DNA from: Macrostomum hystrix
Lineage: Eukaryota; Animalia; Platyhelminthes
Direction of reading: 5' to 3'
Length of the DNA: 64,000 nt
NCBI GenBank assembly: GCA_950097015.1
Contig: CATNEN010000001.1
Location: 14,012,001-14,076,000 of the forward strand
Shown piece after piece: positions 1 through 57,855 of the stretch. The first letter of the stretch is position 1. Each line of letters begins with the position of its first letter. Below the pieces are notes generated by a model. The model was not told where the DNA came from, searched no databases, and saw nothing but the letters and a program-made list of their open reading frames with translations. The translations under genes were made by a program, and so were the position numbers.

Positions 1-915
1 GAGGGAGATAAGAGAGCTAGAGAGGGAGATAAGAGATATAGAGAGGGAGATAAGAGATATAGAGAGGGAGATAAGAGAGGTAAGAGGGAGATAAGAGATA
101 TAGAGAGGGAGATAAGAGAGGTAAGAGGGAGATAAGAGATATAGAGAGGGAGATAAGAGAGGTAAGAGGGAGATAAGAGATATAGAGAGGGAGATAAGAG
201 ATATAGAGAGGGAGATAAGAGAGGTAAGAGGGAGATAAGAGAGCTAGAGAGGGAGATAAGAGAGGTAGAGAGGGAGATAAGAGATATAGAGAGGGAGATA
301 AGAGATATAGAGAGGGAGATAAGAGATATAGAGAGGGAGATAAGAGAGCTAGAGAGGGAGATAAGAGATATAGAGAGGGAGATAAGAGAGGTAAGAGGGA
401 GATAAGAGATCTAGAGAGGGAGATAAGAGATCTAGAGAGGGAGATAAGAGAGCTAGAGAGGGAGATAAGAGATATAGAGAGGGAGATAAGAGATATAGAG
501 AGGGAGATAAGAGAGGTAAGAGGGAGATAAGAGATATAGAGAGGGAGATAAGAGAGGTAAGAGGGAGATAAGAGATATAGAGAGGGAGATAAGAGAGGTA
601 AGAGGGAGATAAGAGATATAGAGAGGGAGATAAGAGATATAGAGAGGGAGATAAGAGAGGTAAGAGGGAGATAAGAGAGCTAGAGAGGGAGATAAGAGAG
701 GTAGAGAGGGAGATAAGAGATATAGAGAGGGAGATAAGAGAGGTAAGAGGGAGATAAGAGATCTAGAGAGGGAGATAAGAGAGGTAAGAGGGAGATAAGA
801 GAGCTAGAGAGGGAGATAAGAGAGGTAAGAGGGAGATAAGAGAGGTAAGAGGGAGATAAGAGATCTAGAGAGGGAGATAAGAGAGGTAAGAGGGAGATAA
901 GAGAGTTAGAGAGGG
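1..915. repeat. Minisatellite, 20-21 bp unit GAGGGAGATAAGAGATATAGA and variants
   Basis: Directly visible tandem array running off the left edge of the window. Confidence 0.95.
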
Positions 916-1444
916 TGGTAGTTAGGTGGATAGCTTAAGTGCATTACAAAATTATTTCTGGATTTAGACATCAGCAGGCAGTAAAAAGTTGTATTTATTA
1001 GGAAATTATTTTACTTCTTATCTCGTCGCTTTTTAAATACTTTTTTGCCTCTCTTCTCGTCGTATTCATGGGCGCGGTCGCTACGAATGTCATGCATCGC
1101 CTGTATTTCATGATCATAAATGTGACATTAATCCTATCCATGGTTGACTAGTTGTGAGCAGGTTGTGTTTCAGGACAAGCCGATTCCAATTTAAAGGTTG
1201 CCTCCTAAGATGGAAGCCAGGCTGTTTAAGGTAGACAAACGCAATTTAGCCTAATCTTTTCTAGTGAATTGATTTTAGCCTTCCTGTGATCGCCAATGCC
1301 TGCCGTGGTCCATTGTTGAGGGGAAATCTTAGTCTGTAGGATTAAATGAAACCTGTTTGACTCAATGCCTAAGACTTCACCTTTATTGGTGCAGTAAATT
1401 GTACTTTCAGTTGTCTCTGGTCAAATTAGGAGTGTAGTTGGGGG

Positions 1445-1997
1445 ATTTACTGTCTAACAGGTAGATTTACTGTCTAACAGGTAGATTTTATGTCTAACAG
1501 GTAGATTTACTGTCTAACAGGTAGATTTCCTTTCTAACAGGTAGATTTTATGTCTAACAGGTAGATTTGCTGTCTAACAGGTAGGTTTACTGTCTAACAG
1601 GTAGATTTACTGTCTAACAGGTAGATTTTATGTCTAACAGGTAGGTTTACTGTCTAACAGGTAGATTTTATGTCTAACAGGTAGGTTTACTGTCTAACAG
1701 GTAGATTTTATGTCTAACAGGTAGATTTTATGTCTAACAGGTAGATTTTATGTCTAACAGGTAGGTTTACTGTCTAACAGGTAGATTTACTGTCTAACAG
1801 GTAGATTTACTGTCTAACAGGTAGATTTACTGTCTAACAGGTAGATTTCCTTTCTAACAGGTAGATTTGCTGTCTAACAGGTAGATTTTATGTCTAACAG
1901 GTAGATTTACTGTCTAACAGGTAGATTTACTTTCTAACACGTGGATTTCCTGTCTAGCATGTAGATTTTTGTCGAACGGGTAGACTTCCTGTCTAAC
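1445..1997. repeat. Minisatellite, 20 bp unit GTAGATTTACTGTCTAACAG
   Basis: About 27 tandem units, degenerating at the right end. Confidence 0.95.
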
Positions 1998-2440
1998 CCC
2001 ACTTTCTCCCTCTCTTATCTACCTCTCTCCCTCTCTTATCTCCCTCTCTACATTGTCTCTCTTTACCTCTACTTTTTTCTATCGTCTGTCTGTCTCTCCA
2101 TTCCACCCTTCCTACCGGTGTCTCCCTCACAATCGCCCTATATCCTCAAATTTCCAATTTAATCCGTCGAATTTTCGTGTCGCGTGTCTTTACAGGAAAT
2201 GCAGATCTCACCAATAGCCAGTTAAAATCGTCAAAAATCCCCAATTGCAATGGAAATAATATTCTATTTTTCTACCCTCAGCTCCGGTCTCTGGTCTGAG
2301 CTTTGGGATGGGAGTGGCTTTACCTGGCCAAGCTGATAAAAATGGGCGTAGTCTGGGCTCCCACAGCCTCCGACATCAAAATTCAGCCACTCTTTCTCCA
2401 CCCGGCCTCTCTATTTCGGAATTCTAAAGTTTCTTTCGCA

Positions 2441-4391
2441 ATGTCCGACATTGCTGTCGACAATGAGGTGGCCAACGAGACGAAACTAGCCCACGATGCT
2501 GTCAACGAAGCCGTTACTGAGGCAGCCAAGACGGTTTCGAGTGAGAAGACCAACTGGCGAAGAACGTCTAAGAAGGTTCGAGAGTTGTCTGCGATATCAG
2601 CATCTCACGACAAGACCGATGAGAAAATCGATGAGAAGATAAGTGCGCAGGCGGATGAGAAAATCGACTCCAAAGTGAATTGGCGAAGGACTTCAAAGAA
2701 GGTCCGAGAACTGGCTTCCCTATCAGGCGGACAGTCGGGTGACAAGGGAGATGAGAAGGCCAATGAGAATTCCGGCTCAAAGAAAACTTGGCGCCGAACT
2801 TCGAAGAAGGTTCGCGAACTGTCTTCTCTATCGCTGACGGAGGCGTCGAATGATAAGGACGCCGATAACAAGGATGAGAATTCAAACGAGAAGGCAGATG
2901 ACAAGGCCGGTTCTAAAAGGGCGAATTGGCGTCGAGTTTCAAAACGATTCAGCGATAAATCATCTTCCTCGTTGAGATCCGACAGAGTGTCGGAAATAGC
3001 CGAAGCCGATGAGAAGACGTCTGAGCAAGTTGGTGAGAAGAAGGTCCGCGAGCAGACGTCACCAACAATGGAAGATGAGACGGCGGCAGCAGCAGAAGAC
3101 AAGTCCAAAGTGAAGGCCGGCTGGCGAAAAGCCTCGAAGCGAGTTCGCGAGCAGACCTCGGCATCGTCTGTGGCAGCTCTGGCGGCTAACGGGGAGGATC
3201 AGGTGGCAACTGCCGGCATCGCTGAAGAAACCGAGGATGAGAACACGGTTGAGAAGATAGAGGTACCTCCAGTTGAGAGTGAACTCGAGAGTCATGACAA
3301 AGTTTTCGAAGGGAATCCTGGTGAGCCACCCAATGAGACCGCCGTTGAAACCCAGGATGGGAAGACGGCGGATGAGGAGAAGGATGAGAAGCCTGGTGAT
3401 AAGACAGGTGAGAAAAACCCTGAGAAGGGTGCATCGTCGCGCACCTCCTGGCGTCGGGCCCGGATGCGATCGGGCAGCGCTGGAAGCAGCAGAGGCTCCA
3501 ATCGCAGCGTGACAAAAGCAGAAAACGAAAATGAAAGCGAAAATACTGAAAAAACTGACGGCGAAGAGGAAAAACTCGGCGAGAACAAAAACCGTTCTGC
3601 CACTAATCGAACAAGTTGGAGGCGAACATCGCAGAAGCAGCAGCAGCAGCAGCAGGACATCCCTGCCAATCCTCCCGAAGGTGCGGCAACCATTCCGGAG
3701 GAAGACGAGCAGGCCAAGCCTCCAATTCGTACCTCGAAGTTAGCAGCCGGTTCCACCTGTCCTAGATGCAGCACCCCGATGCAGGCCGACACGCCCGAAG
3801 GTCGCAACAGTCGCATTCGTCGGTGCCAAGCATGCGGCGCCCAGGTTTGTCTTCTGTGCGACGCGGACTTCGGCTCTGATTCCCAGGGCGCCTGTTGCCT
3901 TCAGGCCAAACTTGTGGGCTGGACCCTGGGCACCCACGCTGACAGGTTCAGCGTGTTTGGCTGCGAGAGAATTCTGTGGCCGGGCTGTCCTGCTGGACGG
4001 AGACTCGCGCGCGGCGTCTTACTGGGTGAGCTTCATGCAGTCTGCGTTTCTATAGTTCTCTAAAATTGTCAATGACCTTTCGGAGGAGAATCGGCGGAGT
4101 GCTGCACAGTCAGAACTGCTCCTTCGGAGGAATATTGTCCAGATTACGAATTTAACGACGGAACTTACCATTCGGAATTGTGAAGAGGCAGTTAATGAAG
4201 ATGAATGGGCCTTCTTTAATACCTCCATTTCAGTGATTCGCTTGCTCCCGTTGCTGCTGTTGCTGACGCTGACGCTGCCGATTGCCTGGCTGCCAGCTGC
4301 GTGCGGCTGCCTTCGCTCCCGCGGTCTGCAGGCCTCTGGACCTGATGATGATAAGGAGGCCCAGATCCTGCCTGATGACGGAGCAGTCTGA
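2441..4391 (+). CDS. Membrane-anchored protein (~580 aa): acidic disordered region with 7 W-R-[RK] repeats, RNF217-like RING2 zinc domain without catalytic Cys, C-terminal hydrophobic segment
   Basis: Model join(2441..4025,4234..4391). ATG 2441 (alternative ATG 2342; in-frame TGA at 2297). Donor G|GTGAG at 4025/4026, acceptor CCATTTCAG| at 4233, phase 1. Exon 2 reads (V)IRLLPLLLLLTLTLPIAWLPAACGCLRSRG...GAV*. CPRC..CQAC..CLLC..GTHADRFSVFGCERILWPGCPAGRRLARG resembles the RNF217 RING2 tail (GDHTSNLSIFGCKYRYLPERPHLRRLVRG, recalled from memory). Confidence 0.8.
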
Positions 4392-7300
4392 CAGCTCCTT
4401 TCAAGATATCGTTCAATCGTTGAACCGATTTACCCCGTGAGACACTCAGTACTGAATACACGCTGGTTATGGAGGCTTGTGTTGTAGTTGTTGTACTTTT
4501 TTATCGCAGAGTATCTTTCATTTCTGCACTACTTCGCAATTACAAGTAGATTAAAACATGTTGCTAGCCTACCTACATGTTAGAAAAATGCTAACCGGAA
4601 AACGAAAGAACACTTTAATTGTCTTCATAGGCGGATTTGTATATGCATATGGTATTGTCGCAATGCAATGTCTACTATCTATTCCTACATAAAAATATAC
4701 AAAACCCACGGTCACTTTTTATTGCATTAATAGATATATTAGGGAAATCTGAAATCTTCAGTCAGATCCCCACTCTCCCTTTTCTCCCAACCTCCCTTCT
4801 CCCTTGCCCTTTACTTCAAACAGCTTCTAGAAGACAGTTCTCCTAAAGGCTTGATTTTATTTCCCCTTTTTGTGATGAGTCGATATTATTCAGCCAGGCT
4901 GATAATCCCTGATCTTGTACGGCACTAGTGCAGACAAAATCGATTAGAGAATGCAATTATTGACGCTTTTGTTTAAAAACGAAATCATCGGCACCATATC
5001 GCTCCTTATCTAGAAATCATCGCATATTTACTTAAATTAAAGTACAAATATCTATGATGAAGCAGTGCTGTTGGAGTGTAAACATGTCTAATAATGTATC
5101 CTAAATAAGAAGAAAAAAATTAAGGCGGGGCTCGTCATCGGCGAATACCGAGTAGCTTAAAGACTGGGCGCGGTATTTCTTAGTAAATATTAATAGTACA
5201 TTATGTTTGGGCGACGGCTCACGCGTTTCTCGCTTTGCTACTCAACAACTGAGTACTTGCACAAGATAAAAGCTTGTACTTTTATCGTTTTCCTTTATTC
5301 TGAAAGGTTAAGATGGTTAAAAGGGTGGTAGAAAATTAAGGAATAAATGAGACTAATTCGAGAAATAAATTAAAGTTAAGTTAAGATAAAGAAAATAAAG
5401 TTAACAAATCATTTTTTCTCAGAAATAACATTTGTTATAATTTAGATTTCAGGTGTTCCGCCGACAGAACACATTATGCCCAAAGTTCAGGTGTATATAT
5501 ATGTACGCATTTATTAAATAATCAACAATGGATGTAATAAATTACAATAGCTAACGACAATTTAGAAAGAAAAATATATATATATTTATGAAAACGAAGT
5601 GTCAAAAAAACTGAATTTTTTAAAGAACAGGAGCAGCATCATCAGTGCATTTAAAATATAATCATGAAACGCAATTCACAGAAGTAACATCAGATAGGCA
5701 GGAAAATGTGGGCTAAATTTTGTTGCCTGGAGTGCAACAGAATAAAATGTCTGTTACAAAATAATAGAACATTTTGCAATCACTAACAACTTAACTACAG
5801 AAACAGAGCACAAGTGTCCAGATAAACAGATAAATAATTTTAGGTAGTATTACAACTATTGTTTTAAAATTCTAACGGCTCTAGATCATACGAGCGTATA
5901 AAGGAAATTTAAACCCTAGTTTGCTCCGAAAATAGTTAAATTGTGAAACTATAAATATAAATTCAATTCAAGGCTCGTTAAACACATCAGGAAGTGACAC
6001 AGGACACTGAGCTGTGCAGTTTTCATAAAATATTTTTCATTGTCGACGTAAAATTTGTTAAACCATTTACAAATTTTTGTAAATGTAAACTTTTTTCGCA
6101 AAAATATTGTTGTTTAGTGTGTTTACATATTTATATTGATTTATATTGATTGATTAGTTAAGTTATAGATACTTAGCACTTTAATTGTAATGTTTTTAGT
6201 AATTCAGTAATAGTTGATTGCAAATGACATTTGCTTACTAAATTATATATTTTTTTCAATAAGTGTCACTTCTAAGACGATTATTTAATGACCCCAAAAC
6301 CAGGAACTATGTAAATAGGCATTGCATTTGCCGGTTGCATTAAAATTATAACAGTCAATAAAATAAATGAATTTCATATTTCTCTTTGAAAATTCTAAAG
6401 AGAGATAAGAAAAATGTGCTAATTAAGAAGTATAACCTTACCTACCAACAAAAATATTTCAGTGTAGTATTTACGAAGTTAAAGTCAAATTTTATTGCGC
6501 TAAAAATAGCAGAGAAATTATGAACTAGATTTATCGTTTTCAGATCGCACAAGCTTTCGATAACTATACATTTGCACACAATACACAGTACATGCGACTC
6601 CTTATAACCCTCCAGAAAAAAGTGACCTCAAACAAACCCGTCGAGTTTTTAATTATTATAATTAAAGTTCTAGTCGGCAACACCAAATATGCAAACAAAA
6701 TATTATTTGCGACCACACTTGTCTAATTCTGGAAACTGTTCAGGATTGGCTCTAGAATTTATTGGCAATCTGAATCATTTCTGCATTTGATTTACCTTAG
6801 TTAATGACGCTACAGGGCCGAAAACCTTACTGAATGACTACTAAGTCTTTTGATAACGAGAGGCTTTCCGTTTAACTTAAAATAGTTTTTAGATTTAACG
6901 CACAATAAAAATATCTGAAATTTAAATAATTTTTTGTTTTAAATTAAGCCATTTTGAGGATCTAAGTAACAAGCAATGCAATGCTTTACACTCACTACTG
7001 ATTTTTTGCTAATATTTGTGCACAAAAAGAACCCATTTTTGTGTGGCAATGCGAATATATTTTATCGTGTATTGTAAAATATATAACCATTTGAATTTAA
7101 TCATTGAGATCTAATCAATAAGTAGGCTATATGGTAAAAGAACTTCTAATACCGAAAAAAGAAAACCATATACATGTGCTTTATGCACTATATAATTACA
7201 ATAGGAAAGAAAGGAAATATGTACCTACAAAATATTCGCTTCTTCTATTTTCTCTTATGCAAAATAATAACAACACGAGAACCGTAGTCTTTTGTATTCT

Positions 7301-7458
7301 TGACTGGCTTTGATTTAGCTTAGCGGTCTGAGGACGAGATAAACTAGATTTGTGTTAAAAAAATATTTAAACCTTGCAACTTTACACAGTCAATGATGTG
7401 AGATGCGGAAATTCTGACAAACTTAAGAGCTGTTTCACTTGGAAATTCAATAGCTGGA

Positions 7459-8552
7459 CTATTGACTCGCCTTTTGCTGCATGACAGCCATCATCTTTTT
7501 GAATTCTGCGGGTTGTGCGAGATAAAAATATAATTAAATGTGCATATTTCTACTCATGTCAGTAGTGAAGTGATGATTATGTGTCATTGCGTTAAAAGCT
7601 AAAATTCATTGCATAAACTGGCAGAAATTAATAAGCCAGGCTGCTCACCATCAAAGTTGATTCTTCCATCGTTGTCAACATCTGCCTCCCGAATCATGGA
7701 TCTGACATCTTCGTCCGAGACCTCCTCGCCAAGGAAGTGCATGGTCTTCTTGATCTCGGCGAAGTCGATATAGTTGTCGCCATTGTGATCGAATGCCTGT
7801 TTCAGAGTCAGGTTTCAGAGGAATAGTTTTGTTTAGGGGAATAGCTGGTACACACTGTCAAGAGTTAGAAGGGCCTACCTTGAAGGCTTCCCACATATCG
7901 GCATCTTCTGAGTGCTCATCTGAGCTCCTCTTGTAGTACTTCTTCATCATCTTCAGGAACTCGTTGAACTCGACTGTGCCGTTGCCTGGAGTGAGCAAAT
8001 ATTTGCTTTGGATTGGAGGCTAGACTAGCAATCCAGTCTAATTATCGACCAATCAGAGGCTAGACTAGCAATCCAGTCTAATTATCGACCAATCAGAGGC
8101 TAGACTAGCAATCCAGTCTAATTATCGACCAATCAGAGGCTAGACTAGCAATCCAGTCTAATTATCGACCAATCAGAGGCTAGACTAGCAATCCAATCTA
8201 ATTATCGACCAATCAGAGGCTACACTAGCAATCCAATCTAATTATCGACCAATCAGAGGCTACACTAGCAATCCAATCTAATTATCGACCAATCAGAGGC
8301 TAGACTAGCAATCCAATCTAATTATCGACCAATCAGAGGCTAGACTAGCAATCCAATCTAATTATCGACCAATCAGAGGCTACACTAGCAATACCTCCCA
8401 TTACCCACCGTCAATGTCAACGTCCGCAATCATTAGCTTGACTTCATCCTCGTTAGTCTTGAAGCCGATAAATTTGAGCACTTTCTGCAGCTCGCCGCTG
8501 GTTATCCGACCATCCTGGTCGATATCGAAGAAGTTGAAGGCCTCTTGCAGTG
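7459..8552 (-). CDS. Calmodulin-like protein, four EF-hand core exons
   Basis: Exons 8552-8409, 7985-7879, 7796-7649 and 7505-7459 are GT-AG with matching phases. Translation: LQEAFNFFDIDQDGRITSGELQKVLKFIGFKTNEDEVKLMIADVDIDGNGTVEFNEFLKMMKKYYKRSSDEHSEDADMWEAFKAFDHNGDNYIDFAEIKKTMHFLGEEVSDEDVRSMIREADVDNDGRINFDEFKKMMAVMQQKASQ*. Intron positions correspond to canonical calmodulin introns. Too diverged to be calmodulin itself. Confidence 0.95.
8016..8392. repeat. Intronic minisatellite, 40 bp unit GAGGCTAGACTAGCAATCCAGTCTAATTATCGACCAATCA
   Basis: About 9.4 near-identical units filling almost the whole 7986-8408 intron. Confidence 0.95.
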
Positions 8553-9010
8553 CTGGCAGGGTGAGGAGGGGCTTGCAATTAAAAGTACATCGAGTAAAGA
8601 CAGACAGCAGGAAGGTAAAGCATTTTCATTTTTAGATGAAAGTGACTAAAGGCACGCTAAAGCAGACTTTTTTTTAAAAAAATTGAACACTGCTTCAGAT
8701 ATGGCCTAGGATGAACTAGATCAAGGATGGTCCGGATATTAAACTTTTGGTTACTAAAGCCACGGTCACTTTGGTCACTTGATCACGCGATTCTAATCAA
8801 TTCATCGTCAATTAAGAGAAAATGCATTGCTCCAGTGCCGGACTCAATTTGAGACCACTTCATCTGCTGCCAGCATCAGTATAGGAATGGGAAGTGGGGA
8901 TAATAGAGACAGAGGGGAGAGACAGGTTGGGTTCTTTGACTTCTTAGACGGGAAGTACAGGAGGTTTGTATTATTCAGAGATAGAAGACGACGAGAATTT
9001 GGAAGAGTGT

Positions 9011-9458
9011 AAGATGTAGGGAGACAATGAGATGTAGGGAGACAATGAGATGTAGGGAGAGAATGCGATTCAGGGAGAGAATGAGAAGTAGGGAGACAAT
9101 GATATGAAGGGAGACAATGAGATGTAAAGAGAGATAATGAGATGTAGGGAGAGAAAGAAATTTAGGGAGAGAATGAAATGTAGGGAGAGAATGAGATGTA
9201 GGGAGACAATGAGATGTAGGGAGACAATGAGATGTAGGGAGAGAATGAGATGTAGGGAGACAATGAGATGTAAAGAGAGATAATGAGATGTAGGGAGAGA
9301 AAGAAATTTAGGGAGAGAATGAAATGTAGGGAGAGAATGAGATGTAGGGAGACAATAAGATGTAGGGAGACAATGAGATGTAGGGAGAGAATGAGATGTA
9401 GGGAGAGAATGAGATGTAGGGAGAGAATGGGATGTAGGGAGAGAATGGGATGTAGGGA
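9011..9458. repeat. Minisatellite, 18 bp unit ATGAGATGTAGGGAGA(CA/GA)
   Basis: Tandem array. Confidence 0.9.
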
Positions 9459-9855
9459 TACAGCAAGAGCCGGTATAGACGTACAATTTCCCGCAAGGCC
9501 AACCGAATCTACATCTATAACATTTCTCATATCGATCACCAGCTCACACATTCGACCAGCATTCGGCAGAAGATTAGCCTGTGAGCACGCTAAGCAATAA
9601 TGAATGCAAATTAGCCGCAAAGAATCTGCAAGGCTGGTGCCGTTAAACTGATCCATACTCCAACATCAAATGCAAATTTTGCAATCCCATAAGATGGCAT
9701 CAGAGAGCCGGGTAGGAAAGAAACAAGAAAGCATTGTAAATGCACGGTTTTGCTGCTGCTGCAAAGAGAACCAATTTAGAGAGAATCGTAAGAGACAGGG
9801 ACTGTGATCTGATGGCTGTTTCTATGGTAGTTTTGAGAATAATTGGGCTTTGACG

Positions 9856-10258
9856 GTGAGATTAGAAGTGAGATTAGACAGTGAGATTAGACAGTGAGAT
9901 CGAACAGTGAGATCAGATAGATTAGACAGTGAGATTAGACAGTGAGATTAGATAGTGAGATTAGACAGTGAGATTAGACAGTGAGATAAGACAGTGAGAT
10001 TAGATAGTGAGATTAGACAGTTAGATTAGACAGTGAGATTAGACAGTGAGATTAGACAGTGAGATCAGACAGTGAGATTAGATAGTGAGATTAGACAGTG
10101 AGATTAGACAGTGAGATCAGACAGTGAGATTAGATAGTGAGATTAGATAGTGAGATTAGACAGTGAGATTAGACAGTGAGATTAGACAGTGAGATTAGAC
10201 AGTGAGATTAGACAGTGAGATTAGACAGTGAGATTAGACAGTGAGATTAGACAGTGAG
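9856..10258. repeat. Minisatellite, 13 bp unit GTGAGATTAGACA
   Basis: Tandem array. Confidence 0.95.
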
Positions 10259-10495
10259 AAGATAAGCAAATGCATGTGTCACGTAATGACAATTTCATGT
10301 AATTCATTCTGCCTGCCTGGTAACACACAGATTCCATTAGCTTTGCTTTAAGTTTAGTTTGAGGTTTTGCTGAAATCATTGAAACAAGAGAAAGATTTCC
10401 CACAGATCCGTTGTACCCCGTGTGAAACAGACTATTTTTACTAAAATCTGCCAATCACTCACTCACAGAACTTTTCTTTTACTCTCTATCTCAAC

Positions 10496-11096
10496 TCAGT
10501 CACTCTCTGATTGTCACTCTCTGAAAGTCACTCTCTAATTGTCACTCTCTGAAAGTCACTCTCTGAAAGTCATTCTCACTCATTCACCCTCACTCAGTCA
10601 CTCTCACTCAGGCACTCTCACTCAGTCACTCTCTGATTGTCACTCTCTGATTGTCACTCCCTGATTGTCACTCTCTGATTGTCACTCTCTGATTGTCACT
10701 CTCTGATTGTCACTCTCTGATTGTCGCTCTCTGAAAGTCACTCTCTGAAAGTAATTCTCACTCATTCACCCTCACTCAGTCACTCTCACTCAGGCACTCT
10801 CACTCAGTGTCACTCTCACTCAGTCACTCTCACTCAGTCACTCTCTGATTGTCACTCTCTGATTGTCACTCCCTGATTGTCACTCTCTGATTGTCACTCT
10901 CTGATTTTCACTCTCTGATTGTCACTCTCTGATTGTCACTCTTTGATTGTCACTCTCACTCAGTCACCCTCACTCAGGCACTCTCACTCAGTCACTCTCT
11001 GATTGTCACTCTCTGATTGTCACTATCTGATTGTCACTCTCACTCAGTCACACTCACTCAGGCACTCTCACTCAGTCACTCTCTGATTGTCACTCT
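10496..11096. repeat. Minisatellite, 14 bp unit GTCACTCTCTGATT / GTCACTCTCACTCA
   Basis: Tandem array of two interleaved variants. Confidence 0.9.
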
Positions 11097-11448
11097 CCTG
11101 CAATAACCTTTGTAGTCAGTAAAAATCTGAGAGTCTCAAACATTTGCAGACTTTATTAAAACAGTCAAACAAAAAAGTAATTAGCCTACGCAAGCATGGC
11201 AAATGAACCCCAGCTTCACTTCCTGATGGACGAAATTCAGAATCAAACACAAACCCAAGGGATTTGTCAGTCAAAAAAAATTCCTTCAAATATCCGCCTA
11301 CGTAAGTTTAGAAAAATCCTAAAATATCGAGCGAAAAGACGGAACTGACTCAAGCTGAGATTTGAGCAGCCAGCAATCGACTGTTCCACTTAGTAGCAGA
11401 GTAGTGCCGAAAATGTTCTCAGATAGATATAGAAATATAGCAACTTAC

Positions 11449-14400
11449 TCTTCTGCTCGGGCTCTCCTATGCCGCCCTAATGAGCACGGGGGGGGGAAGG
11501 CGTTACAGAGGCGGAGAAGAGAAGAGAAGATGAGACCGAAGGGAGAGGACTTTGAGATGACTTTGCGTGCTCATTCGGAGACTCAGCTCAGCTCAGCTTA
11601 CTTCTATTCCGTTGAGCAGTTCGCTCAGCTAAGTATGCCGAATATAAATATATATATTCAATTCCCACTGCTCAGCTCAGCCAAACCCTTACTATTTATA
11701 GATATTTGTGTGCCAGGCGCCAGTGGATTGACAACTTCTCCTCAAACTCACTCACCGATCTCTCACTATACTTGCAATCATATTCAGCTAGCTAAGGACA
11801 CGCTTGTAACAGTGCCTGGCACTGATTTATTGGCTCAGGAAATCTCAGCTAGTTCTTTGGCATGGAGCTAAAACACTCTGACCTACACTGTCTGCTTATC
11901 CACCCTACCCTGTCTGCTTATCCACCCTACCCTGTCTGCTTATCCACCCTACCCTGTCTGCTTATCCACCCTACCATGTCTGCTTATCCACCCTACCCTG
12001 TCTGCTTATCCACCCTACCCTGTCTGCTTATCCACCCTACCCTGTCTGCTTATCCACCCTACCCTGTCTGATTATCCCCTCTACCCTGTCTGCTTATCTA
12101 CACTACCCTGTCTGCTTATCCACCCTACCCTGTATCCTTATCCACCCTACCCTGTCTCCTTATCCACCCTACCCTGTCTGCTTATCCACCCTACCCTGTC
12201 TGCTTATCCACCCTACCCTGTCTGCTTATCTACACTACCCTGTCTGCTTATCCACCCTACCCTGTCTGCTTATCCACCCTACCCTGTCTGCTTATCCACC
12301 CTACCCTGTCTGCTTATCCACCCTACCCTGTCTGCTTATCTACACTACCCTGTCTGCTTATCCACCCTACCCTGTCTCCTTATCCACCCTACCCTGTCTG
12401 CTTATCCACCCTACCCTGTCTGCTTATCTACACTACCCTGCCTTATCATCACACCCTACCCTGCCTTATCACCACACCCTACCCTGCCTTATCACCACAC
12501 CCTACCCTGCCTTATCATCACACCCTACCCTGCCTTATCACCACACCCTACCCTGCCTTATCACCACACCCTACCCTGCCTTATCATCACACCCTACCCT
12601 GCCTTATCACCACACCCTACCCTGCCTTATCACCACACCCTACCCTGCCTTATCATCACACCCTATCCTGCCTTATCATCACACCCTATCCTGATTTCAA
12701 CTACCCTGATCCTGCTAACCCAACACCGTATTCCCCTGATGCATTGGCACAGCTTCTGAACAACTCCCATAGTTCATCCTCACTCTACTCATCCCGGCCC
12801 TACTATGCTCCAAAGCCCCTGATTTGCCTTCGCAGAGTTGTGCTAATTTAAGCTTTCTCAACAAGGTTTCTCTTACCCAAGCCAAGAACTCAGTATTCCT
12901 TCATCTTGAGCCCAGCAATTTCTTCTGATATGATTAGACCTTAGGCTAGCGACCCACACGGCCGCTGCACTGCCACACAAACTATATTCCTCAATCAGTC
13001 TATGCCTCATTTTGTAGGCGTGCACTATATCTATTCAGATGGCTGTCATTTATTTGTATCATTCCGCTGCTGTGAGGCTGAACAGATGAGACCGGAGGAT
13101 TTCAAAGAAATTTTCGACTCAAAATAACTGCTTTGAAATAGTAAGGCTTGATTAACTGAATGATTAACTTTGAGCACTCTTAGTCTGCTTTCTCCTAACT
13201 ATTCATGGACACTCTCAACCTACTTCTCTTATCTACTTTCTCACTCTCAATCTACTTCTCTTATCTACTTTCTCACTGTCAATCTACTTCTCTTATCTAC
13301 TTTCTCACTCTCTCAACCTACTTCTCTTATCTACTTTCTCACTGTCAATCTACTTCTCTTATCTACTTTCTCACTCTCTCAAACTACTTCTCTTATCTAC
13401 TTTCTCACTCTCTCAACCTACTTCTCTTATCTACTTTCTCACTCTCTCAACCTACTTCTCTTATCTACTTTCTCACACTCGATCTACCCTGATCTACCCT
13501 ATCAGAAGTCGAAGCTTCTTATCTTTTAGTTCAATAGTAATTATTTTTTCTTCACCTACAAATGTACTTGTCAGCTATAATACGCCCAAATCAGCCGTGT
13601 GCAACGCAGTCAGTTTTTAATCTATTTGTAAAATCCCCTAAAATTGCGACCAAAAGCGACTGACACATTTTAATATTATTCTTCCCAAAATAGGAGCTAA
13701 ATTCCAGGAAGTGGCTCGCGATTTGACAAGAACGGGAATTCGGGACGGGTGAAAGTCTTAACTTTAAACTGGGCTTATCACATGTTCAACAGCAAAGCTA
13801 AAATAGTTCGAAAAACGATAGAAAACTTTCTATTTCAAGAAAGGACTAGAAAATAATTATTGACTTATCTTAAAAAATCCACATAATTCCCTAAAAATTA
13901 CAACGCTTTCAAGTTAAGACTTACCCTCCAAACGCATCTCCTAATTAGGTCATTCGAATATAATCTATTAGTATCGATCAGTATAGATTTTTATCTATTA
14001 GATTAGATCATTATCGATCCATATCGATCAGTATAGATAATTATCGATCAGTATCGATCCGTATAGACGATTATCGATCAGTATCGATCTGTATAGATCA
14101 TTATCGATTAGTATCGATCCGTATAGACCATTATCGATCAGTATCGATCTGTATATATCATTATCGATCAGTATCGATCCGTATAGACCATTATCGATCA
14201 GTATCGATCTGCATAGATCATTATAGATTAGTATCGATCCTAAGTGATCATTATAGATCATTATCGATCCGTATAGTTCATTATCGATCCTAAGTGATCA
14301 TTATTGATCATTATCGATCCGTATACTCGTAGATCAATATCGATCAGTATCGATCAGCATAGATAATTATCGATCAGTATCGATCAGCATAGATAATTAT

Positions 14401-14974
14401 CGATCAGTATCGATCCGTATAGATAATTATCGATCAGTATCGATCCGTATAGATAATTATCGAACTTTATAGATAATTATCGATCAGTATAGATCCATAG
14501 TGATCATTATCGATCGTTATCGATCAGAATCTATCATCATCCATTCTCTAGTCCTTGTATCGGTCATAATAAATTCTTTTAACCCTGTTTATGTCTCAAA
14601 CAGTTATCCGGTAGTTCTAATTAGTGAAAAAGCCCTTACAAATTTCCTGTGACCATCGGATCTTCATCAGTAATACCACTATCAAGTCTCACCTTTGTCG
14701 CTAGGCTGATGTGGTCTGCCGCTCCGAGCTCCGTTGCTATGGGCCATCTAGCTTATATTTTTTGTCTCGATGGGTCTTCTTTAACACGGCTGCCCAATTT
14801 TTAATAGTTTCAACTTGAACGGAAGTTTTGAAAGTTGCTCTATGCGCTTAGTAACTATGGTATCCAGTTTGGGGAGTGCAGATCAAGGAATCTTTGATTT
14901 GGGAAAATTCTCAACTTTTTAATAATTTCTAGTCAGTCTGGATTTTGCTTTTAGGGGCTTCTTTAGATAAGTAC

Positions 14975-15021
<47 letters not shown>

Positions 15022-18000
15022 ACGCTGCTGCTTGCTTTAGGGAGAATGAGCAAAGGGAAGGCCTAAAGTCCCAACAGCCAATCAGCTTCGACTAGACAGT
15101 ACTCAGCTCTGCTGGTCTGCGATTCAGCCACCCCACCAGCCAGCAACTAAGGAGGCGGCAACCAACCAGAAACAGTTTGTCTTAGTTGGCAACCAGCCCT
15201 GTCTGGCACTGTGTTTGCCTGTCTCCGCTCCGTGCGAGCTCTGCATCGTGGCCTCAACTTTTACTCATATGACTGCATATGCCGACCTAAAACGTTTTAG
15301 CTTCTTCGCATTCTCTCCCCTCTGCCCTTCGCCTCCTCCATTCCTCCACTTCTCTCCTCATCTCTCTCCTTATCTCTCTCCTCATCCGTCTCCTCATCTG
15401 TCTCCTCATCTCTCTCCTCCTCTCTCTTCTCATCTGTCTCCTCATGTCTCTCCTCCTCTCTCTCCTCATCCGTCTCCTCATCTGTCTCCTCATCTCTCTC
15501 CTCCTCTCTCTTCTCATCTGTCTCCTCATGTCTCTCCTCCTCTCTCTCCTCCTCTCTCTTCTCATCTGTCTCCTAATCTCTCTCCTCCTCTCTCTTCTCA
15601 TCTGTCTCCTCATGTCCCTCCTCCTCTCTCCTCCTCATCTATCTCCTCATGTCTCTCCTCCTCTCTCCTCCTCATCTGTCTCCTCATGTCTCTCCTCCTC
15701 TCTCCTCCTCATCTATCTCCTCATGTCTCTCCTCTTCTCTCTCCTTATCTCTCTCCTAATCCCTCTCCTCATGTCTCTCCTCCTCTCTCTCCTCCTCTCT
15801 CTTCTCATCTGTCTCCTCATGTCCCTCCTCCTCTCTCCTCCTCATCTATCTCCTCATGTCTCTCCTCCTCTCTCCTCCTCATCTGTCTCCTCATGTCTCT
15901 CCTCCTCTCTCCTCCTCATCTATCTCCTCATGTCTCTCCTCTTCTCTCTCCTCCTCTCTCTCCTCATCTCTCTTCTCATCTGTCTCCTCATCTCTCTCCT
16001 CATCTCTCTCTTCATCTGTCTCCTCATCTGTCTCCTCATGTCTCTCCTCAACTCTCTCCTCCCTTCCTCCATTGAAGAGATTTACATATCTTCAGTCTGA
16101 GAGGGCATGTCAGCCGTCAATGCTTTGTTAAATAAGCAGTTTTATCAAAGTCAAATTAGCTTGCTCGGCTAGCCAAGGATTAACTGTAACTAGACAGAAA
16201 AAAGAAAAGCATTGCCCAATTAAATCCAACTGGCTGGCCTATCAGACAGAGAGGATCAAATAGAATTTTCAAAGGCCAGCAACAGTAGCAGCTAAACATA
16301 GGAAAGCAAGAAGATCAATAATAGTTTGATGGCCGAGAGCGAAAAAGATGGGAGTTATTTTTGTTGACTCTAAAATTAACCTGGAACTTTGGGAGAAGAG
16401 AGAGACAAAGCAGAGGGTTAGAGAAGGAGAGAGAAATGAGTAGATGAGGTAGGAGTAAGGGGAGAGTAAGGGGGGAGAGTGGGCGGAGCGGTCTAACGCG
16501 TTTGCCTCTCGCATTAAGGTCCCTGAGCTCGATTCCGCGGCGAGGCCACATTCATTTGGGGCGCAGCAGCGGAGAGAAGGCTTGGAGGCTTGTCGTGCAA
16601 TTTACGCCCTTGAGGGCCCTTGAGGGTGAGAATAAGGGTTAGAGTAAGGGGAGAGTGAGGGGAGAGTAAGGGGTAGATGAAGAGGTAGATTAAGGGGTAG
16701 ATTAAAGGGTAGAGTAAGGGGGAGAGCAAGGGGTAGATTAAGGGGGTAGAGTAAAGGGGTAGATTAAGGGGGAGAGTAAGGGGTAGAGTAAAGGGGTAGA
16801 GTAAGGGGGAGAGTCAGGGGGAGAGTAAGGGGGTAGAGTAATGGGGTAGAGTAAGGGGGAGAGTCAGAGGGAGAGTAAGGGGGTAGATTAAGGGGGAGAG
16901 TAAGGGGGAGAGTAAGGGGGTAGAGTAAGGGGGTAGAGTAAGGGGGAGAGTCAGGGGGAGAGTCAGGGGTAGAACCGGAGGGGAGTGAGGCAGTACTTCA
17001 TGGATCAGTGATAAGGCAGAGGAGCAGTTTGGGAGAGGCGCATCGGGAGGGTGGCTGATAGTCGCGGAAGGCAACGCTGGGTTAGTGGTGAAGAGTGGTG
17101 AATTTAGGAGGAATCACGGTACGTATACACAAACTCACACTCACACTCACTCACGCACACACACACAATGCAAGGGCCAAAGGCTGTAAGCATCGGCTCA
17201 GTTCTGCATGAAATTCGAGAAACTTTCGTCAGCTAGTATAAAAAACCTAGACAGAGAGAAGTATTGTAACCCGACACACTGCCGCCTGAGTCGATCTTGT
17301 CGAGAGCGGAAGAGCGGAGGGACAGAGTATATACAACATCGAAGGAAAGGAGCGGATCAAATATGACTGGAGGTGGGATCTGCTGTCTGTTCAAACAATC
17401 TCTTTTTAGGGAAAATTATTGCTTTCCTTTCATCTTCCCATCTGCATCCGGCTGTTTTTAGTGTTTTACGAACAAAAATACGATTCAATAGTTTGATAAT
17501 TTGAATCCAGCTTGTAAAGGGGAGTCTAGCTTCCACTTTCTTCATACTCACATCGCATCATGCTGCTTGAAAAGTAGTTGTCGTCACCGTTCTAAAATGA
17601 GAAGGGCAGTTAAAAACTCTAAAATATATAGGCGCACACTATACTTTCTACTTATTGACCAGAATGAGTAGGCTAATTCGGACATGACAACCTAAATTTG
17701 GGTGAAAATTTATTAGAAAAAAATGTTAATTTTCAATGTCTCACCGCGGCCGAGGCATTGTTGTGACTGCCATTGTTGGCAACGCTGTGATGGGAAGTCT
17801 GAAATGAAAACAATAAAATGTCATTTATTTAGGGAGATGCTTGAAATGTATTGTTAAAATTAGGAGACAAGCAACACAGCAACTATGACTGAACACATTT
17901 AGGCTCTCAATGCCAACGTAAAGCACAAAAAATCTAAATATAGAACACATTAAATTGGCCTCCTTAAGTAAAGAAAGGGCAATCGATAATGTGCAGATCC

Positions 18001-29198: not shown

Positions 29199-30195
29199 TC
29201 AGTCAATGAGTCCATTGCCATAAACAAGAACTTCACAGAGATTGACCGACAACTGCTGCAGATTGGCAACTGTCAGCGTGCTGCCGAGGGCATTGCATCG
29301 GAAGCTCGCCACGGAGAATGGGACGGTCAGGTTCACGCGGTGGCACTCGACGCCGTCCACTTGAATCGACATCAGATTGAGCACCGATTGGCAACAATCC
29401 TGCCTGTTGTAGATGGTGACGTGCGTGATGCGAGATCGTTTCGACAACTTTCCTTGCCACCAGCCGGATAAGTTATCTGCGGTGTGACTGCACGACCCAG
29501 CCAGTGTCTGGTTGGTGTCCCCGTCTATGGCTCGGCCGCAGACTGCGCCAAGCTTATCCGAGCTCTGGCTGCAGCTGATAATGTTTAGCCTCTCTGTAAA
29601 AATGGACAGAACTGTAAAAGAAAAATAATAATAATAGTAATCACGCAGATGGGCTGCGGGCAATGGCACACCATTAGGTGACAGTGAATGGGACACCACT
29701 AGACCCGCAGCCAGCGAGGAGGCCATTCTGCCCATTTCGCAGACTCCTTAGTGCACACACTCACACAGGTGTGTTCATCTACGTTGGCTTCCTGAAAATT
29801 GATGTGGCCTCGCGGCGTAATCGAGCTCAGGGACAATGGTGCGAGAGGCGAACCGCACAGCCACTCACCCCTTGACATAACAGTATACCTTAGTTGCAAA
29901 CATCACCTGTCTTTCTGATGTAGACATCGCACTGCTCAGACGGACGCCATTCGTCATTGTTGAAAGCGGACCAGTTGAAAAGACGACAGACACCTCGCAG
30001 CCAGCTGAAACCGAAGCACATCCTGACAGCCGAGCAATCCTGGGCGCACTTCAGCCGCTCACTTCCAGACACGGCCACCGTGGCAGCCGGAGTTGAGAAG
30101 TTGCGCGTCCTGACGGCAATGTACCGGACCTGCAGTGTCACCTGGCCGGAGATGAGGATAGTAGACAGCAGCAGGACCAAATTCTTGCTTGACAT
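29199..30195 (-). CDS. Secreted PAN/apple + F-type lectin (fucolectin-like) protein, ~227 aa, paralogue 1
   Basis: Exons 30195-29907 and 29593-29199, phase-1 intron. Signal peptide; CAQDC..CFGFSW..C PAN pattern; RAIDG..CSHT..WW..VTIYNRQDCC..NLCEVLVYG F-lectin pattern. Confidence 0.88.
29622..29871 (-). mobile_element. SINE family A with internal deletion and (ATT)n tail, in the lectin gene intron
   Basis: Reverse complement matches the head and 3' hairpin/tail of the 37152 copy. It accounts for this intron being longer than the paralogous one. Confidence 0.85.
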
Positions 30196-32279: not shown

Positions 32280-35200
32280 ATGCGCGTCGCGATTTTATTA
32301 GCTCTGCTGCAAATTGTGTGTTTTAAAGGTGAGCTCACCTGGATTACTGTAAGTTGGCAACCTATAATTTATGTTGAAACTAGAGGTTTTATTTTTTTGG
32401 TCTATTAGTGTAATCATTTTGCACTAATTTTACATAACATTGCATAAAATTGAGTAAATATCACTTTTTGACAAGTTTTTGAACACGAGTGTTAAACACG
32501 CGATGTTTTTTCAGTTTGATTATAGATTAAAACAAAAGAAACAATTAAAACAAGTCTTAGATAGGTAGAACTACGTTTTTGGACAGATAAGTTTGAAGCA
32601 AAAAATGCATTCAATTATTTAGAATCCATGATCTTTTGCTACCTCCGCAATTTTCTATCAGAACGATTGGTTCATTCAAATACTTTAGCTCATTTAAAGA
32701 GCTAAATAGCTAAATTAGCTAACAGTGGATAGTTAGTTAAATAAAAAGCCAATAGCCAGGCAATTCTGCCCCTTTCGCTGACTCCTGAGCACACACGCAC
32801 ACAGATACCGTACGCTGGCATAGGCTCACACAGGTGTGTACGTCTGCCTGACTTTCTCATCATCTGGCCGTGTACACTTCACTGTACCTTGAAGGTTAGC
32901 CCTCAAAATCGCCCCGAAGCGAAGCAATAAATGTTGCCTCGCCGCGGAATCGAGCTCAGGGACCTTGGTGAGAGGGGCTGACGCGTTAGATCGCTCTGCC
33001 ACTCGACCCCTTCAGAAGATAGGTAAATTTGCTCGTAAATGAACTACTATTAGTAGACTTAAAAATTTATAAAACATTAAAGATTAACTCTAGAGGACTT
33101 GAATTAACGAAAAATATATATTGCTCGCCTACACCGACAATATATTTGCTTTTAGTTGGCAGTTCTTTCGCCAGCATCAGGAGCAGCATTTTCCAATCGG
33201 CAGCGTCCATCAAGCTTGACACAACAGTGAGCAGTTGGATCGCTAGTGAAGCCAACATCGGCAGCCACATGGTCTGCTTCGCCAAGTGCCAGTCTGCTGG
33301 CTGCGCCGCTGCTTTGTTTTATCCGGGCCGACGCACCTGCGAATTCTTATTGATTAACGACGCTTCGTTGGCCCCCGGACCGCCTGGAACTCACCTGACC
33401 CGAGAGCTGAACGGCTCTGCGATTGGCGCTAGAGTGTGGAAAGCTGCGAACTATGACGACGTTTTGAGAAGCCGGGCGATGGTCAACCTGACCTATCTAA
33501 GTAAGCCAAAGTGATCTTGACTGCCACACTTTTTAGTTCCGGTTACTGGGGTGAATCCAGCCTGTACAGGTCGAACACACCTTTAAATATGGCACTCCAC
33601 GGGGGTGAGTGGCAGAGGTGTCTAACGCGTTTGCCCCTCTCACCAAGGTCCCTGAGCTCGATTCCTTGGCGATCGCAATATTCATTTGTGGCTTGTCATG
33701 GAATTAATGACTTTGAGGGCCAACCTCCAAGGTACGGCGAGAGTGTACACTGCCTGACGGTGAGAAGGTCAGTGGAGATGTACACACCTGTGTGAGTGAG
33801 TACTCAGGAGTCAGCGAAATGGACAGAATTGACACTCCAAAAACAGCACATCAAATGATCAAGCTAAGCAGCAGCACCCGATACCACCCAGTTCTCCAAG
33901 GTAGCACCCGCCTAAAATACCCCCTTAGCTTATTTTACAAAAAAGGCTCTAGCTTGGTGACTTGGCGTCTCTCGCTGGCTTTTTTCTTTCCCAACATCCA
34001 CCCAAGCAGTCGACATTGCTTGGAGCAATGATCCAGATGGACGATGATTGCTGTTGCAGATTCGGGCACAGGACGTGTTGGCAGTGTACAGGTCCTTCTT
34101 ATCAACATCACCGGCTGCTATCGCATTGAAGCCGCCGGTGCCAGAGGCGGCCAATCAGGAACTTCGCTGCCCGGCGGCTGGGGCGCCACCTCGGCTGGCA
34201 GCTTCGGCCTGGCCGCCGGCACTCGCCTGGCTATCGTCGTTGGCCAGGCTGGTGGAGCCGCTTCAAAGAATCAAGGCGGCGCCGGTGGTGGCGGCGGCAG
34301 CTTCGTGTACACCAACTCGGACAGCGGTTACAGGAACAGCTCAGTCACGAATCCCAGCGTGAGCAACTGCATGCGAGATGGCAGTGCAGCCGCCTGCTAC
34401 TTGCTGCTAGCCGCAGGAGGCGGAGGGGGTGCGTCCAGCGACTATGATGGTGAGTCTCGTCAAAAGTCAAAAGTGCTGACTGGTGTCAGGCGCAGAATGC
34501 GGTTACAGATCGGCTGCTAAAAGTGGCTCCAGTGAAATGCAATAATTAAATTATCTGAAACCCACGCTGGCTCACGGTTTACCAAGGACTAATACTTACA
34601 TTAGAAGGCCCTTAATTATTGGAAAAGTTTTTTTCATAATAGAAAATCTAATTGTGAGCCACTTTAGAGAGCAGAATTATGATAGTTGAGGATATAGTTC
34701 TATAGACTCATTCAGTTTTATATGTGAAATTATTTCGTATGGTTTGAAGCGAGAATGAATATGGCTCATTTTCCAGTTTTTTCTTTCGGCATTCTTCTCC
34801 TGGCCATTTTTTGCCCGATAGTATTCGCGCAATGTACTTTTATTATAATTAGATAAAATGTGTGAATGCAGATGCAAAACTTAGGAAACTGGTTTTCGCA
34901 TAAAAATGAGAGAATTTTTTCATATTTTCACATTTCAGATGGTGATTGATTTCTATTAAAAGCTGCTATTGTGATATAACTCTACCCAGTATTTTGCTGA
35001 TTTGAAAATTATTTTTTTTGAAAATAAAGATTTTCAAATCCTATTATTTTCTTTACTGGGCCTATAAAAAACATTGGCAGAGTCTAAGCATATAAGCAGG
35101 GTGAGTGGCAGAGTGTTTAACGGGTTTGACTCTCGCACCAAGATCCCTGAGCTCGATTCCGCGGCGAGACAACATTAATTGGGGCGGAGAGAAGGCTTTG

Positions 35201-42641: not shown

Positions 42642-42793
42642 CTCGCAAGCAATTAATAGAAAAGTAGTCACGAATTGACCTTGACCTGTCTAACTCTGAA
42701 CTCTGAAACAGTTTAATTTTGTTTCTTTGACATTGTTATTGTTATGCCATGGCTATTTTCCTTATGTATACGCGTGCACATGCATACTGTATA

Positions 42794-43065
42794 CAGAGGC
42801 AGATTTAGGGGGGGCGGGGGGGCAGTTGCCCCCCTAAATTTTAATCATGGGAATAAGATGCCCCCACCAGGGGCGCCAGTCGCAGCACTGGCGCCCCTTT
42901 TCGGCCGCTGGCGCCCCTTTTTCAGCCGCTGGCTCCCGTTTTTCAGCCGCTGGCGCCCTTTCTTGGCTCCTGGCGCCCTTTTTCGGCCGCTGGCACCCCC
43001 TCTGTGATTCTCATGGCGCTCCCCTGACAGACCGCCCCAAAACAAAATTCCTGGATCTGCCACTG
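42794..43065. mobile_element. hAT-like MITE inside Helitron unit 1
   Basis: Imperfect TIRs CAGAGGCAGATTTAG / CTGGATCTGCCACTG; 8 bp TSD ACTGTATA at 42786-42793 and 43066-43073. Confidence 0.85.
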
Positions 43066-57810: not shown

Positions 57811-57855
57811 GGCGTTCGTTTCCGCAGTGAATGAGTAAAAGGCTAACTCGAATCA

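What the first reader, a model, noticed from the sequence alone, without database searches (positions are those of the whole stretch)
2441..8552. Possible calmodulin-sponge/partner pair: multivalent 1-8-14 motif membrane protein convergent with a calmodulin-like gene
Seen: seven Trp-anchored basic motifs (W codons at 2555, 2681, 2789, 2927, 3122, 3449, 3617) separated by acidic linkers. The first three read WRRTSKKVRELSAI, WRRTSKKVRELASL and WRRTSKKVRELSSL, and are conserved as protein while their codons have diverged. Established: smooth-muscle MLCK binds Ca2+/calmodulin through WQKTGHAVRAIGRL (W1, V8, L14), and RRxS is the PKA consensus. These repeats have W1, V8 and I/L14, with RRTS inside. 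The next gene, 3 kb away and tail-to-tail, is a divergent four-EF-hand calmodulin-like protein. Inference: a membrane-tethered, phospho-switchable multivalent calmodulin dock, possibly paired with its neighbour. The adjacency may be coincidental.
Basis: partly seen in the sequence, partly recalled or inferred. Interest (0 to 1): 0.8.

Follow-up and report, generated by a model that had tools for sequence, protein, structure and literature searches.

The report
Dead ubiquitin ligase turned membrane dock
A flatworm gene carries seven tryptophan-anchored basic motifs on a long acidic arm, fused to the remnant of an RBR ubiquitin ligase that lacks its catalytic parts; it likely works as a membrane-anchored dock, probably for calcium-loaded calmodulin, while a dedicated partnership with the calmodulin-like gene next door is unlikely.

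Summary
The seven motifs are real, but only motifs 1-3 fit the 1-8-14 calmodulin pattern. Its C-terminus comes from a membrane-type RBR ubiquitin ligase (RNF217 by recall). A DNA pattern of its tail found 17 loci, all with an RBR RING2 segment, and all 17 have a splice donor at the same codon as the window. Here RING1 and the catalytic RING2 core are missing; an IBR-like zinc domain joins the post-RING2 tail and a predicted transmembrane exon. The neighbour is a spliced four-EF-hand calmodulin-like gene. A mis-built Macrostomum lignano record runs from that gene into this gene's antisense strand, so the tail-to-tail pair exists there too. In that copy the W-R-[RK]-x-S-K core persists, but V8 plus I/M14 survives in one of five motifs. 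Best reading: a catalytically dead ligase reused as a membrane-tethered, phosphorylatable dock, probably for Ca2+/calmodulin, working like AKAP79/gravin basic regions. Binding is untested, and shared gene order between close relatives is weak support for pairing. New variant of a known kind; interest 0.38.

The parts
2441..4025 (+). Main coding exon of the repeat gene (ATG 2441; another in-frame ATG at 2342). Residues 1-433 acidic, low complexity, no Cys.
   Evidence: Open frame; composition; contigs cover 2391-2887 and 3569-3722 in 3 of 4 runs; antisense match to M. lignano record P0003
2555..2596 (+). Motif 1: W1, V8, I14, net +4, RRxS
2681..2722 (+). Motif 2: W1, V8, L14, net +4, RRxS
2789..2830 (+). 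Motif 3: W1, V8, L14, net +4, RRxS
2927..2968 (+). Motif 4: W1, F8, S14; RRxS; not 1-8-14
3122..3163 (+). Motif 5: W1, V8, A14; RKxS; not 1-8-14
3449..3490 (+). Motif 6: Trp-Arg-Arg only; weakly amphipathic
3617..3658 (+). Motif 7: WRRTS followed by a poly-Gln run
3755..3898 (+). IBR-like zinc domain (six Cys in register plus a final Cys pair; the IBR His is absent)
   Evidence: Pfam IBR E 0.0023, below cut-off; hhalign 91.8%, E 7.5e-7 to homologue IBR; Atlas IBR/Rcat clusters 0.86-0.91
3899..4025 (+). IBR-linker remnant meeting the post-RING2 tail at His499; no catalytic GCxHM motif
   Evidence: compatible with the M. lignano antisense record at 41 of 68 positions over residues 461-528, shuffle maximum 27
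4026..4233 (+). Predicted phase-1 intron (GTGAG...TTTCAG)
   Evidence: Donor at the same codon and phase as in 17 of 17 homologous loci; acceptor is the most pyrimidine-rich phase-compatible AG; GC 0.44 against 0.63 in the next exon; not seen in RNA
4234..4391 (+). Predicted last exon completing a transmembrane segment, Cys-rich juxtamembrane stretch and short tail (580-residue model)
   Evidence: Hydropathy 2.46; antisense match to P0003 30 of 52, E 6e-10; 34 of 53 residues compatible, no shuffle control
5475..7458 (-). Likely 3' UTR of the calmodulin-like gene
   Evidence: Contigs 7153-7505 are joined to its coding exons; separate contigs cover 5475-6775, strand unknown; minus-strand AATAAA at 5510
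7459..7505 (-). Calmodulin-like gene, last coding exon
7649..7796 (-). Calmodulin-like gene, exon with EF3 and most of EF4
7879..7985 (-). Calmodulin-like gene, exon with the end of EF2 and a linker four residues longer than calmodulin's
8409..8552 (-). Calmodulin-like gene, exon with EF1 and the start of EF2
14693..14747 (-). Calmodulin-like gene, first coding exon (ATG at 14747)
   Evidence: Loose end in 2 of 4 runs maps exactly to 14695; GT donor; matches the start of P0003

Best explanation
The gene encodes the remnant of a membrane-type RBR ubiquitin ligase that lacks RING1 and the catalytic RING2 motif, with a long acidic arm bearing seven Trp-anchored basic motifs; it likely acts as a membrane-anchored dock whose first three motifs probably bind Ca2+/calmodulin, predicted to be tuned by phosphorylation, with no dedicated tie to the neighbouring gene. 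Shown: motifs, RBR ancestry of the tail, loss of RING1 and of the catalytic motif, persistence of the gene in M. lignano. Predicted: the intron, the membrane anchor, and a cytosolic arm (by analogy with membrane RBR ligases). Inferred: at rest the basic motifs lie on acidic lipids or on the protein's own acidic linkers; Ca2+/calmodulin or a calmodulin-like protein wraps the amphipathic helices of motifs 1-3 through W1/V8/L14; a basophilic kinase acting on the RRxS serine weakens binding. The IBR remnant and membrane segment would keep the ancestral localisation.
For: RBR ancestry: 17 of 17 pattern hits belong to genes with an RBR RING2 segment (GCDHMTC in the same frame in 16; on the preceding exon in L012); Pfam IBR_1 above cut-off in 3 of 3 such exons scanned. 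A GT donor at the same codon and phase in 17 of 17, a feature not in the pattern, is shared with window 4026. The zinc cluster, also outside the pattern, aligns with the homologues' IBR (hhalign 91.8%; scores 49-71 against 41 for the RING2 core; Cys-fixed shuffles reached the IBR score 0-40 times and the RING2 score 130-207 times in 1,000). Loss of ligase parts: no Cys in residues 1-433, no RING1 match in the window, no GCxHM here or in the inferred M. lignano reading. Motifs: conserved as protein, amphipathic (moment 0.56-0.64 for motifs 1-3), net +4, meeting the definition in PMC3685217. Precedent: AKAP79 binds calmodulin through a Trp-anchored basic site that overlaps its lipid-binding region, and gravin has three candidate Trp-anchored sites (PMC5698441 passages).
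Against: Four of seven motifs fail 1-8-14, and the full pattern is clear in only 1 of 5 inferred M. lignano motifs; one of those five has Ser in place of Trp. The three good motifs are copies of one unit, so they count as one event. Any basic amphipathic helix gives this spacing. Pfam IBR stays below its cut-off, and fold matches to RBR domains are weak (Foldseek best E 0.23; Z up to 4.0). The intron and membrane segment rest on sequence comparison alone. The subfamily name RNF217 is recalled.
Confidence: 0.5

Rival explanations
1. The motifs are mainly kinase sites and acidic-lipid contacts (a MARCKS-like electrostatic switch) or docks for another partner; calmodulin binding is absent or incidental.
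For: The [RK][RK]xS core is present in 6 of 7 window motifs and in 4 of 5 inferred M. lignano motifs, whereas position 14 varies. A single Trp beside a basic patch suits membrane-interface binding (established knowledge, recalled).
Against: V8, L11 and I/L14 are kept in all three near-identical copies and in one M. lignano motif, more than a kinase site needs. In AKAP79 lipid and calmodulin binding share one site, so the two readings overlap.
Confidence: 0.27
2. The protein still works in the ubiquitin system, as a catalytically dead adaptor or competitor of an intact RNF217-like ligase, using its IBR remnant, tail and membrane segment; the motifs regulate it.
For: The tail and membrane exon are the best-conserved parts against M. 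lignano, and the ancestral tail motif is retained.
Against: RING1, the E2-binding part, and the catalytic Cys are gone (roles as in PMC10903993 passages). Three quarters of the protein is the motif-bearing arm. No intact paralogue could be looked for, as no genome is held.
Confidence: 0.1
3. One reading: a calmodulin sponge paired with the calmodulin-like protein encoded next door.
For: The same tail-to-tail order is present in the M. lignano record P0003. The neighbour is strongly conserved (141 of 148) and has four canonical loops; its alignment to calmodulin keeps most Met/Phe pocket positions (pocket positions recalled).
Against: One comparison between close relatives, where shared gene order is expected; synteny-guided orthology is routine in this genus (PMC10468722 passages). 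Convergent genes share no promoter. Another calmodulin-like transcript is present in 4 of 4 runs (loose end at 7704), so partners are not scarce. Animal ligand-partner pairs are seldom neighbours (general knowledge).
Confidence: 0.08
4. A decaying duplicate or a wrong gene model, with the repeats as by-products of internal duplication.
For: No protein relative was returned by three large searches; the ligase parts are lost.
Against: 528 open codons; synonymous excess among repeats; the same reading frame is preserved in M. lignano; ancestral splice donor intact; contigs in 3 of 4 runs.
Confidence: 0.05

Closest known systems
RNF217-type membrane RBR E3 ligases (subfamily name recalled; RNF217 listed among RBRs with hydrophobic regions in PMC4021871 passages)
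   Same: IBR-like zinc domain, post-RING2 tail motif, intron position after RGxxx, C-terminal hydrophobic segment
   Different: No RING1, no RING2 core or catalytic Cys, IBR His lost; long acidic arm with Trp-basic repeats, not seen in the flanks of the 17 homologous loci (flanks of 2 kb at most)
AKAP79 (AKAP5) and gravin (AKAP12) Trp-anchored basic regions (PMC5698441 passages)
   Same: Membrane-associated scaffold with Trp-anchored basic sites; several candidate sites in one protein (gravin); calmodulin competing with acidic lipid (AKAP79)
   Different: Their pattern is 1-4-7-8; here positions 4 and 7 are Thr and Lys. No sequence homology found; anchor here is a predicted transmembrane segment; no PKA-anchoring helix was sought
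1-8-14 calmodulin targets such as smooth-muscle MLCK (definition from PMC3685217 passages; MLCK letters recalled)
   Same: W1, V8, I/L14, net +4 in motifs 1-3
   Different: Repeated in a disordered arm and not attached to an enzyme; four further motifs are degenerate; binding untested
Calpacitins (neuromodulin/GAP-43, neurogranin, PEP-19, Igloo; PMC9618489 passages) and MARCKS (recalled)
   Same: Small or acidic proteins proposed to store or release calmodulin under kinase control
   Different: Calpacitins use IQ motifs with PKC sites; no IQ motif here; unrelated origin
Calmodulin and calmodulin-like proteins (neighbour gene)
   Same: Four canonical EF-hand loops
   Different: 51 of 113 identical to a near-canonical calmodulin (L018), four extra linker residues; 141 of 148 identical to M. 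lignano P0002

Membership tests
RBR E3 ubiquitin ligase | RING1 domain that recruits E2~ubiquitin | tested here: not met
   No Cys in residues 1-433; a homologue RING1 exon finds nothing better than E 1.9 in the 64-kb window. Sequence upstream of the window could not be read.
RBR E3 ubiquitin ligase | IBR domain, C6HC | tested here: inconclusive
   Six Cys in register and a last Cys, His missing; hhalign 91.8%; Pfam 18.4 bits against cut-off 24.3; weak fold matches
RBR E3 ubiquitin ligase | RING2 with catalytic Cys | tested here: not met
   GCDHM is present in all 17 homologous loci and absent from the window protein and from the inferred M. lignano reading
Membrane RBR group (RNF217, RNF144, RNF19) | C-terminal hydrophobic segment after the RING2 tail | tested here: met
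   On the predicted splice only: hydropathy 2.46; exon conserved in M. lignano. The homologues' own membrane exon was not found in their flanks.
RNF217 subfamily | Orthology by tree against named RNF217, RNF144 and RNF19 sequences | not testable with these tools
   The 17 loci bear no gene names and no named reference was returned; paper searches for the motifs found none. The name is recalled.
1-8-14 calmodulin-binding motif | Hydrophobic residues at 1, 8, 14 and net charge +3 to +6 (motifs 1-3) | tested here: met
   3 of 7 motifs, net +4
1-8-14 calmodulin-binding motif | Same pattern in motifs 4-7 | tested here: not met
1-8-14 calmodulin-binding motif | Anchors conserved in an orthologue | tested here: inconclusive
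   Clear in 1 of 5 motifs inferred from an antisense-read record; a second has A8 with E or L at 14. The record may contain false introns and frame changes.
1-8-14 calmodulin-binding motif | Ca2+-dependent binding to calmodulin | not testable with these tools
   Needs a binding assay
AKAP79/gravin 1-4-7-8 motif | Hydrophobic residues at 1, 4, 7, 8 | tested here: not met
   Thr4 and Lys7 in motifs 1-3; definition
Calpacitins | IQ motif | tested here: not met
   No Pfam family at E up to 10 for residues 1-433; no IQxxxRG by inspection
Calmodulin-like EF-hand proteins (neighbour) | Four EF-hand loops with canonical ligands | tested here: met
Canonical calmodulin (neighbour) | Near-identity to calmodulin | tested here: not met
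   51 of 113 identical to L018, longer linker

The most novel reading that the evidence does not exclude
An RBR ubiquitin ligase duplicate lost its catalytic machinery and was rebuilt as a transmembrane, kinase-switched calmodulin sponge whose preferred ligand is the divergent calmodulin-like protein encoded tail-to-tail beside it, a genomically linked sensor-and-buffer pair in an animal.
Probability: 0.08. Interest if true: 0.72.

Novelty: new variant of a known kind. Interest (0 to 1): 0.38.

Why it matters
Pseudo-enzymes are well known among kinases, but an RBR ligase relic that keeps only its IBR, tail and membrane anchor and gains a multivalent docking arm was not found in the paper searches made here (open-access library only). 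If the motifs bind calmodulin, this is an independent origin of an AKAP79/gravin- or GAP-43-like calcium buffer, in a genus where knock-down and expression mapping are practical. It also shows that a public 679-residue 'Calmodulin' record is a chimera of one gene and the antisense strand of another. The scope is narrow: one genus, untested binding.

Tried and rejected
Complex prediction of the M. lignano calmodulin-like protein (P0002 residues 90-241, 4 Ca) with a 33-residue motif-2 peptide: no answer, score 0.03 against a mark of 0.34, controls not folded, alignments not used; not counted either way. No whole genome is held, so paralogues, an intact RNF217-like gene and background microsynteny could not be checked. 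No RNA holder was listed as such; the four runs are taken as RNA from their spliced joints and come from one study. No contig covers 3723-4391 specifically; the matches at 4235-4279 are short CTG-rich pieces of other transcripts, so the predicted intron is neither shown nor contradicted. Homologue searches for the repeat protein were empty, as was a PDB search with the repeat profile. Single-sequence fold of the zinc region: pLDDT 46; with homologues 54; fold searches weak though RBR domains fill many top rows. A 30-nt intron 4026-4055 was rejected because it gives an early stop; a 40-nt intron 4016-4055 has a poor donor and ignores the conserved donor. The 111-codon frame 4056-4391 is therefore read as intron plus last exon. 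No calmodulin-like match in 47 kb of flanks of the 17 RBR loci: too little flank to bear on linkage. PP1-docking RVxF fits only the residues before motif 2 (by inspection, motif recalled), so it was dropped. Viral-contig search with P0002 found no relative. PMC6288150 passages were not useful. Earlier findings of the scan: none returned. No supplements were read; gene tables in supplements of Macrostomum papers could hold expression data for either gene.
Full report
Observation. The frame 2441-4063 encodes 540 residues. Its first 433 residues are rich in Glu, Ser, Lys and Ala, contain no Cys, and hold seven Trp, each followed by two basic residues, at exactly the stated codons. Seven W[RK][RK] words against at most 3 in 10,000 shuffles is not chance. 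Motifs 1-3 differ at 6-7 synonymous and 1-3 non-synonymous codons of 14, so they are kept as protein. Only these three meet the 1-8-14 pattern, each with net charge +4, inside the +3 to +6 range given in PMC3685217 (passages). Six of seven carry [RK][RK]xS (that this is the PKA consensus is recalled). Contigs from three of four runs cover 2391-2887 and 3569-3722.

The neighbour. Four runs of one study, taken as RNA from their joints, splice three introns of a minus-strand gene. A loose end in two runs maps to 14695, giving a first coding exon from 14747. The product has 166 residues and four canonical EF loops, is 141 of 148 identical to M. lignano P0002, and 51 of 113 identical to a near-canonical calmodulin. 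The window is therefore a Macrostomum flatworm (inferred), probably not the same species as those records; an old paralogous block within one species is not excluded.

What the repeat gene is. Pfam and the Atlas gave weak IBR-type hints for residues 439-485, and three homologue searches were empty. The tail recalled RNF217, so I searched metagenome contigs with a DNA pattern of 12 tail residues and their spacing. All 17 hits belong to genes with an RBR RING2 segment bearing the catalytic GCDHM motif, in the same frame in 16 and on the preceding exon in L012; six show a full IBR exon upstream and one a RING1-like exon. Two features outside the pattern tie the window to them. First, all 17 have a GT donor three codons and one base after the final RG, and so does the window at 4026. 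Second, the window's zinc cluster aligns with their IBR and linker: hhalign 91.8%, E 7.5e-7; local scores 49-71 against 41 for the RING2 core, with Cys-fixed shuffles reaching them 0-40 and 130-207 times in 1,000. The hhalign test against RING2 (1.3%) lacked the first Cys pair and is biased; the tail match (88.6%) is circular. MAFFT places both the His ending the IBR linker and the His starting the post-RING2 tail on window His499. The simplest reading is an internal deletion of the RING2 core; a very diverged RING2 with an insertion is the alternative. Either way the catalytic motif is absent, and RING1 is not in the window. RING1 recruits the E2 and RING2 supplies the catalytic Cys (PMC10903993 passages), so this is not a working RBR ligase. 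The best phase-compatible acceptor is 4233, giving 580 residues with a 19-residue hydropathy peak of 2.46. No RNA covers this joint. Folds were low in confidence and their matches weak. The name RNF217 is recalled; PMC4021871 (passages) lists it among five human RBRs with hydrophobic regions.

A relative. P0003, a 679-residue M. lignano record named calmodulin, matches the calmodulin-like exons and then the minus strand of the repeat gene in reverse order: 4381-4226 (30 of 52, E 6e-10), 4012-3887 (19 of 42) and 3177-2623 (70 of 191, E 4e-15). It is a mis-built model that runs through the neighbour's antisense strand, which shows the same tail-to-tail pair. Inferring sense residues from it, 41 of 68 positions over residues 461-528 are compatible with the window (shuffle mean 16, maximum 27 of 2,000), the zinc ligands and membrane exon persist, and no GCxHM appears. 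Five motifs can be read: four with Trp, one with Ser. V8 with I/M14 is clear in one, a second has A8 with E or L at 14, and the basic-basic-x-Ser core fits four (a sixth row printed there overlaps the last motif and was dropped). False introns in the record may hide more.

Mechanism. I favour a membrane-anchored dock (0.5): a cytosolic acidic arm presents short basic amphipathic helices (moment 0.56-0.64 for motifs 1-3) that Ca2+/calmodulin or a calmodulin-like protein would bind, in competition with acidic lipid and under control of phosphorylation at the internal Ser. AKAP79 binds calmodulin at a Trp-anchored basic site within its lipid-binding region, and gravin has three candidate sites of that type (PMC5698441 passages); their 1-4-7-8 spacing is not met here, so this is analogy. 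Calpacitins offer the buffer concept but use IQ motifs (PMC9618489 passages). Against: basic 1-8-14 matches are common (8 in 3,292 residues of three transposon frames, none Trp-anchored), the three good copies are one event, and the orthologue keeps the kinase-like core better than position 14. Hence a kinase/lipid switch without physiological calmodulin binding gets 0.27, a dead adaptor in the ubiquitin pathway 0.10, and a decaying duplicate 0.05.

Pairing. The linkage is real in two genomes, but close relatives are expected to share neighbours (synteny-guided orthology is used in this genus; PMC10468722 passages), I could not measure the background, convergent genes share no promoter, and another calmodulin-like transcript is present in all four runs. 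I give a dedicated pair 0.08.

Novelty. Paper searches for RNF217 with RBR terms or flatworms, for the motifs themselves, and for Macrostomum with calmodulin listed nothing on this gene (listings and abstract starts only, open-access library). It is a new variant of known kinds: a pseudo-ligase by descent, a basic-motif scaffold by likely function. Interest 0.38.

Noticed in passing
P0003 (UniRef100_A0A1I8IBS7): A 679-residue public record named 'Calmodulin' is a chimera: calmodulin-like exons followed by the antisense reading of the neighbouring repeat gene.
   Followed up: yes
P0002, P0004 versus P0003; window 14693-14747: M. lignano records of the calmodulin-like gene have two different N-termini, suggesting alternative first exons; the window's spliced first exon matches the P0003 form.
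   Followed up: partly
window 7704: A loose end in 4 of 4 runs reads as a different calmodulin-like transcript, so the organism has at least one more such gene.
   Followed up: no
window 29199-29747 and 37776-38213 (minus); 33023-35935 (plus): Two F5/8 type C lectin-like frames flank a PAN-like frame (below cut-off) and an ALK/LTK glycine-rich frame.
   Followed up: partly
window 41425-44563: Two near-identical tandem blocks with Pif1 helicase fragments, Helitron-like by inference.
   Followed up: partly
window 47676-57852 (minus): A non-LTR retrotransposon frame (endonuclease, reverse transcriptase, zinc fingers) abuts a Ty3/gypsy-type element with gag, protease, RT, RNase H and integrase matches.
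   Followed up: partly
L018:559-933: A viral-collection contig encodes a near-canonical calmodulin, cut off at the end of the fetched locus; host contamination not excluded.
   Followed up: no
window 1-16000: Many short-period tandem arrays (13-66 bases), several inside introns of the calmodulin-like gene.
   Followed up: no
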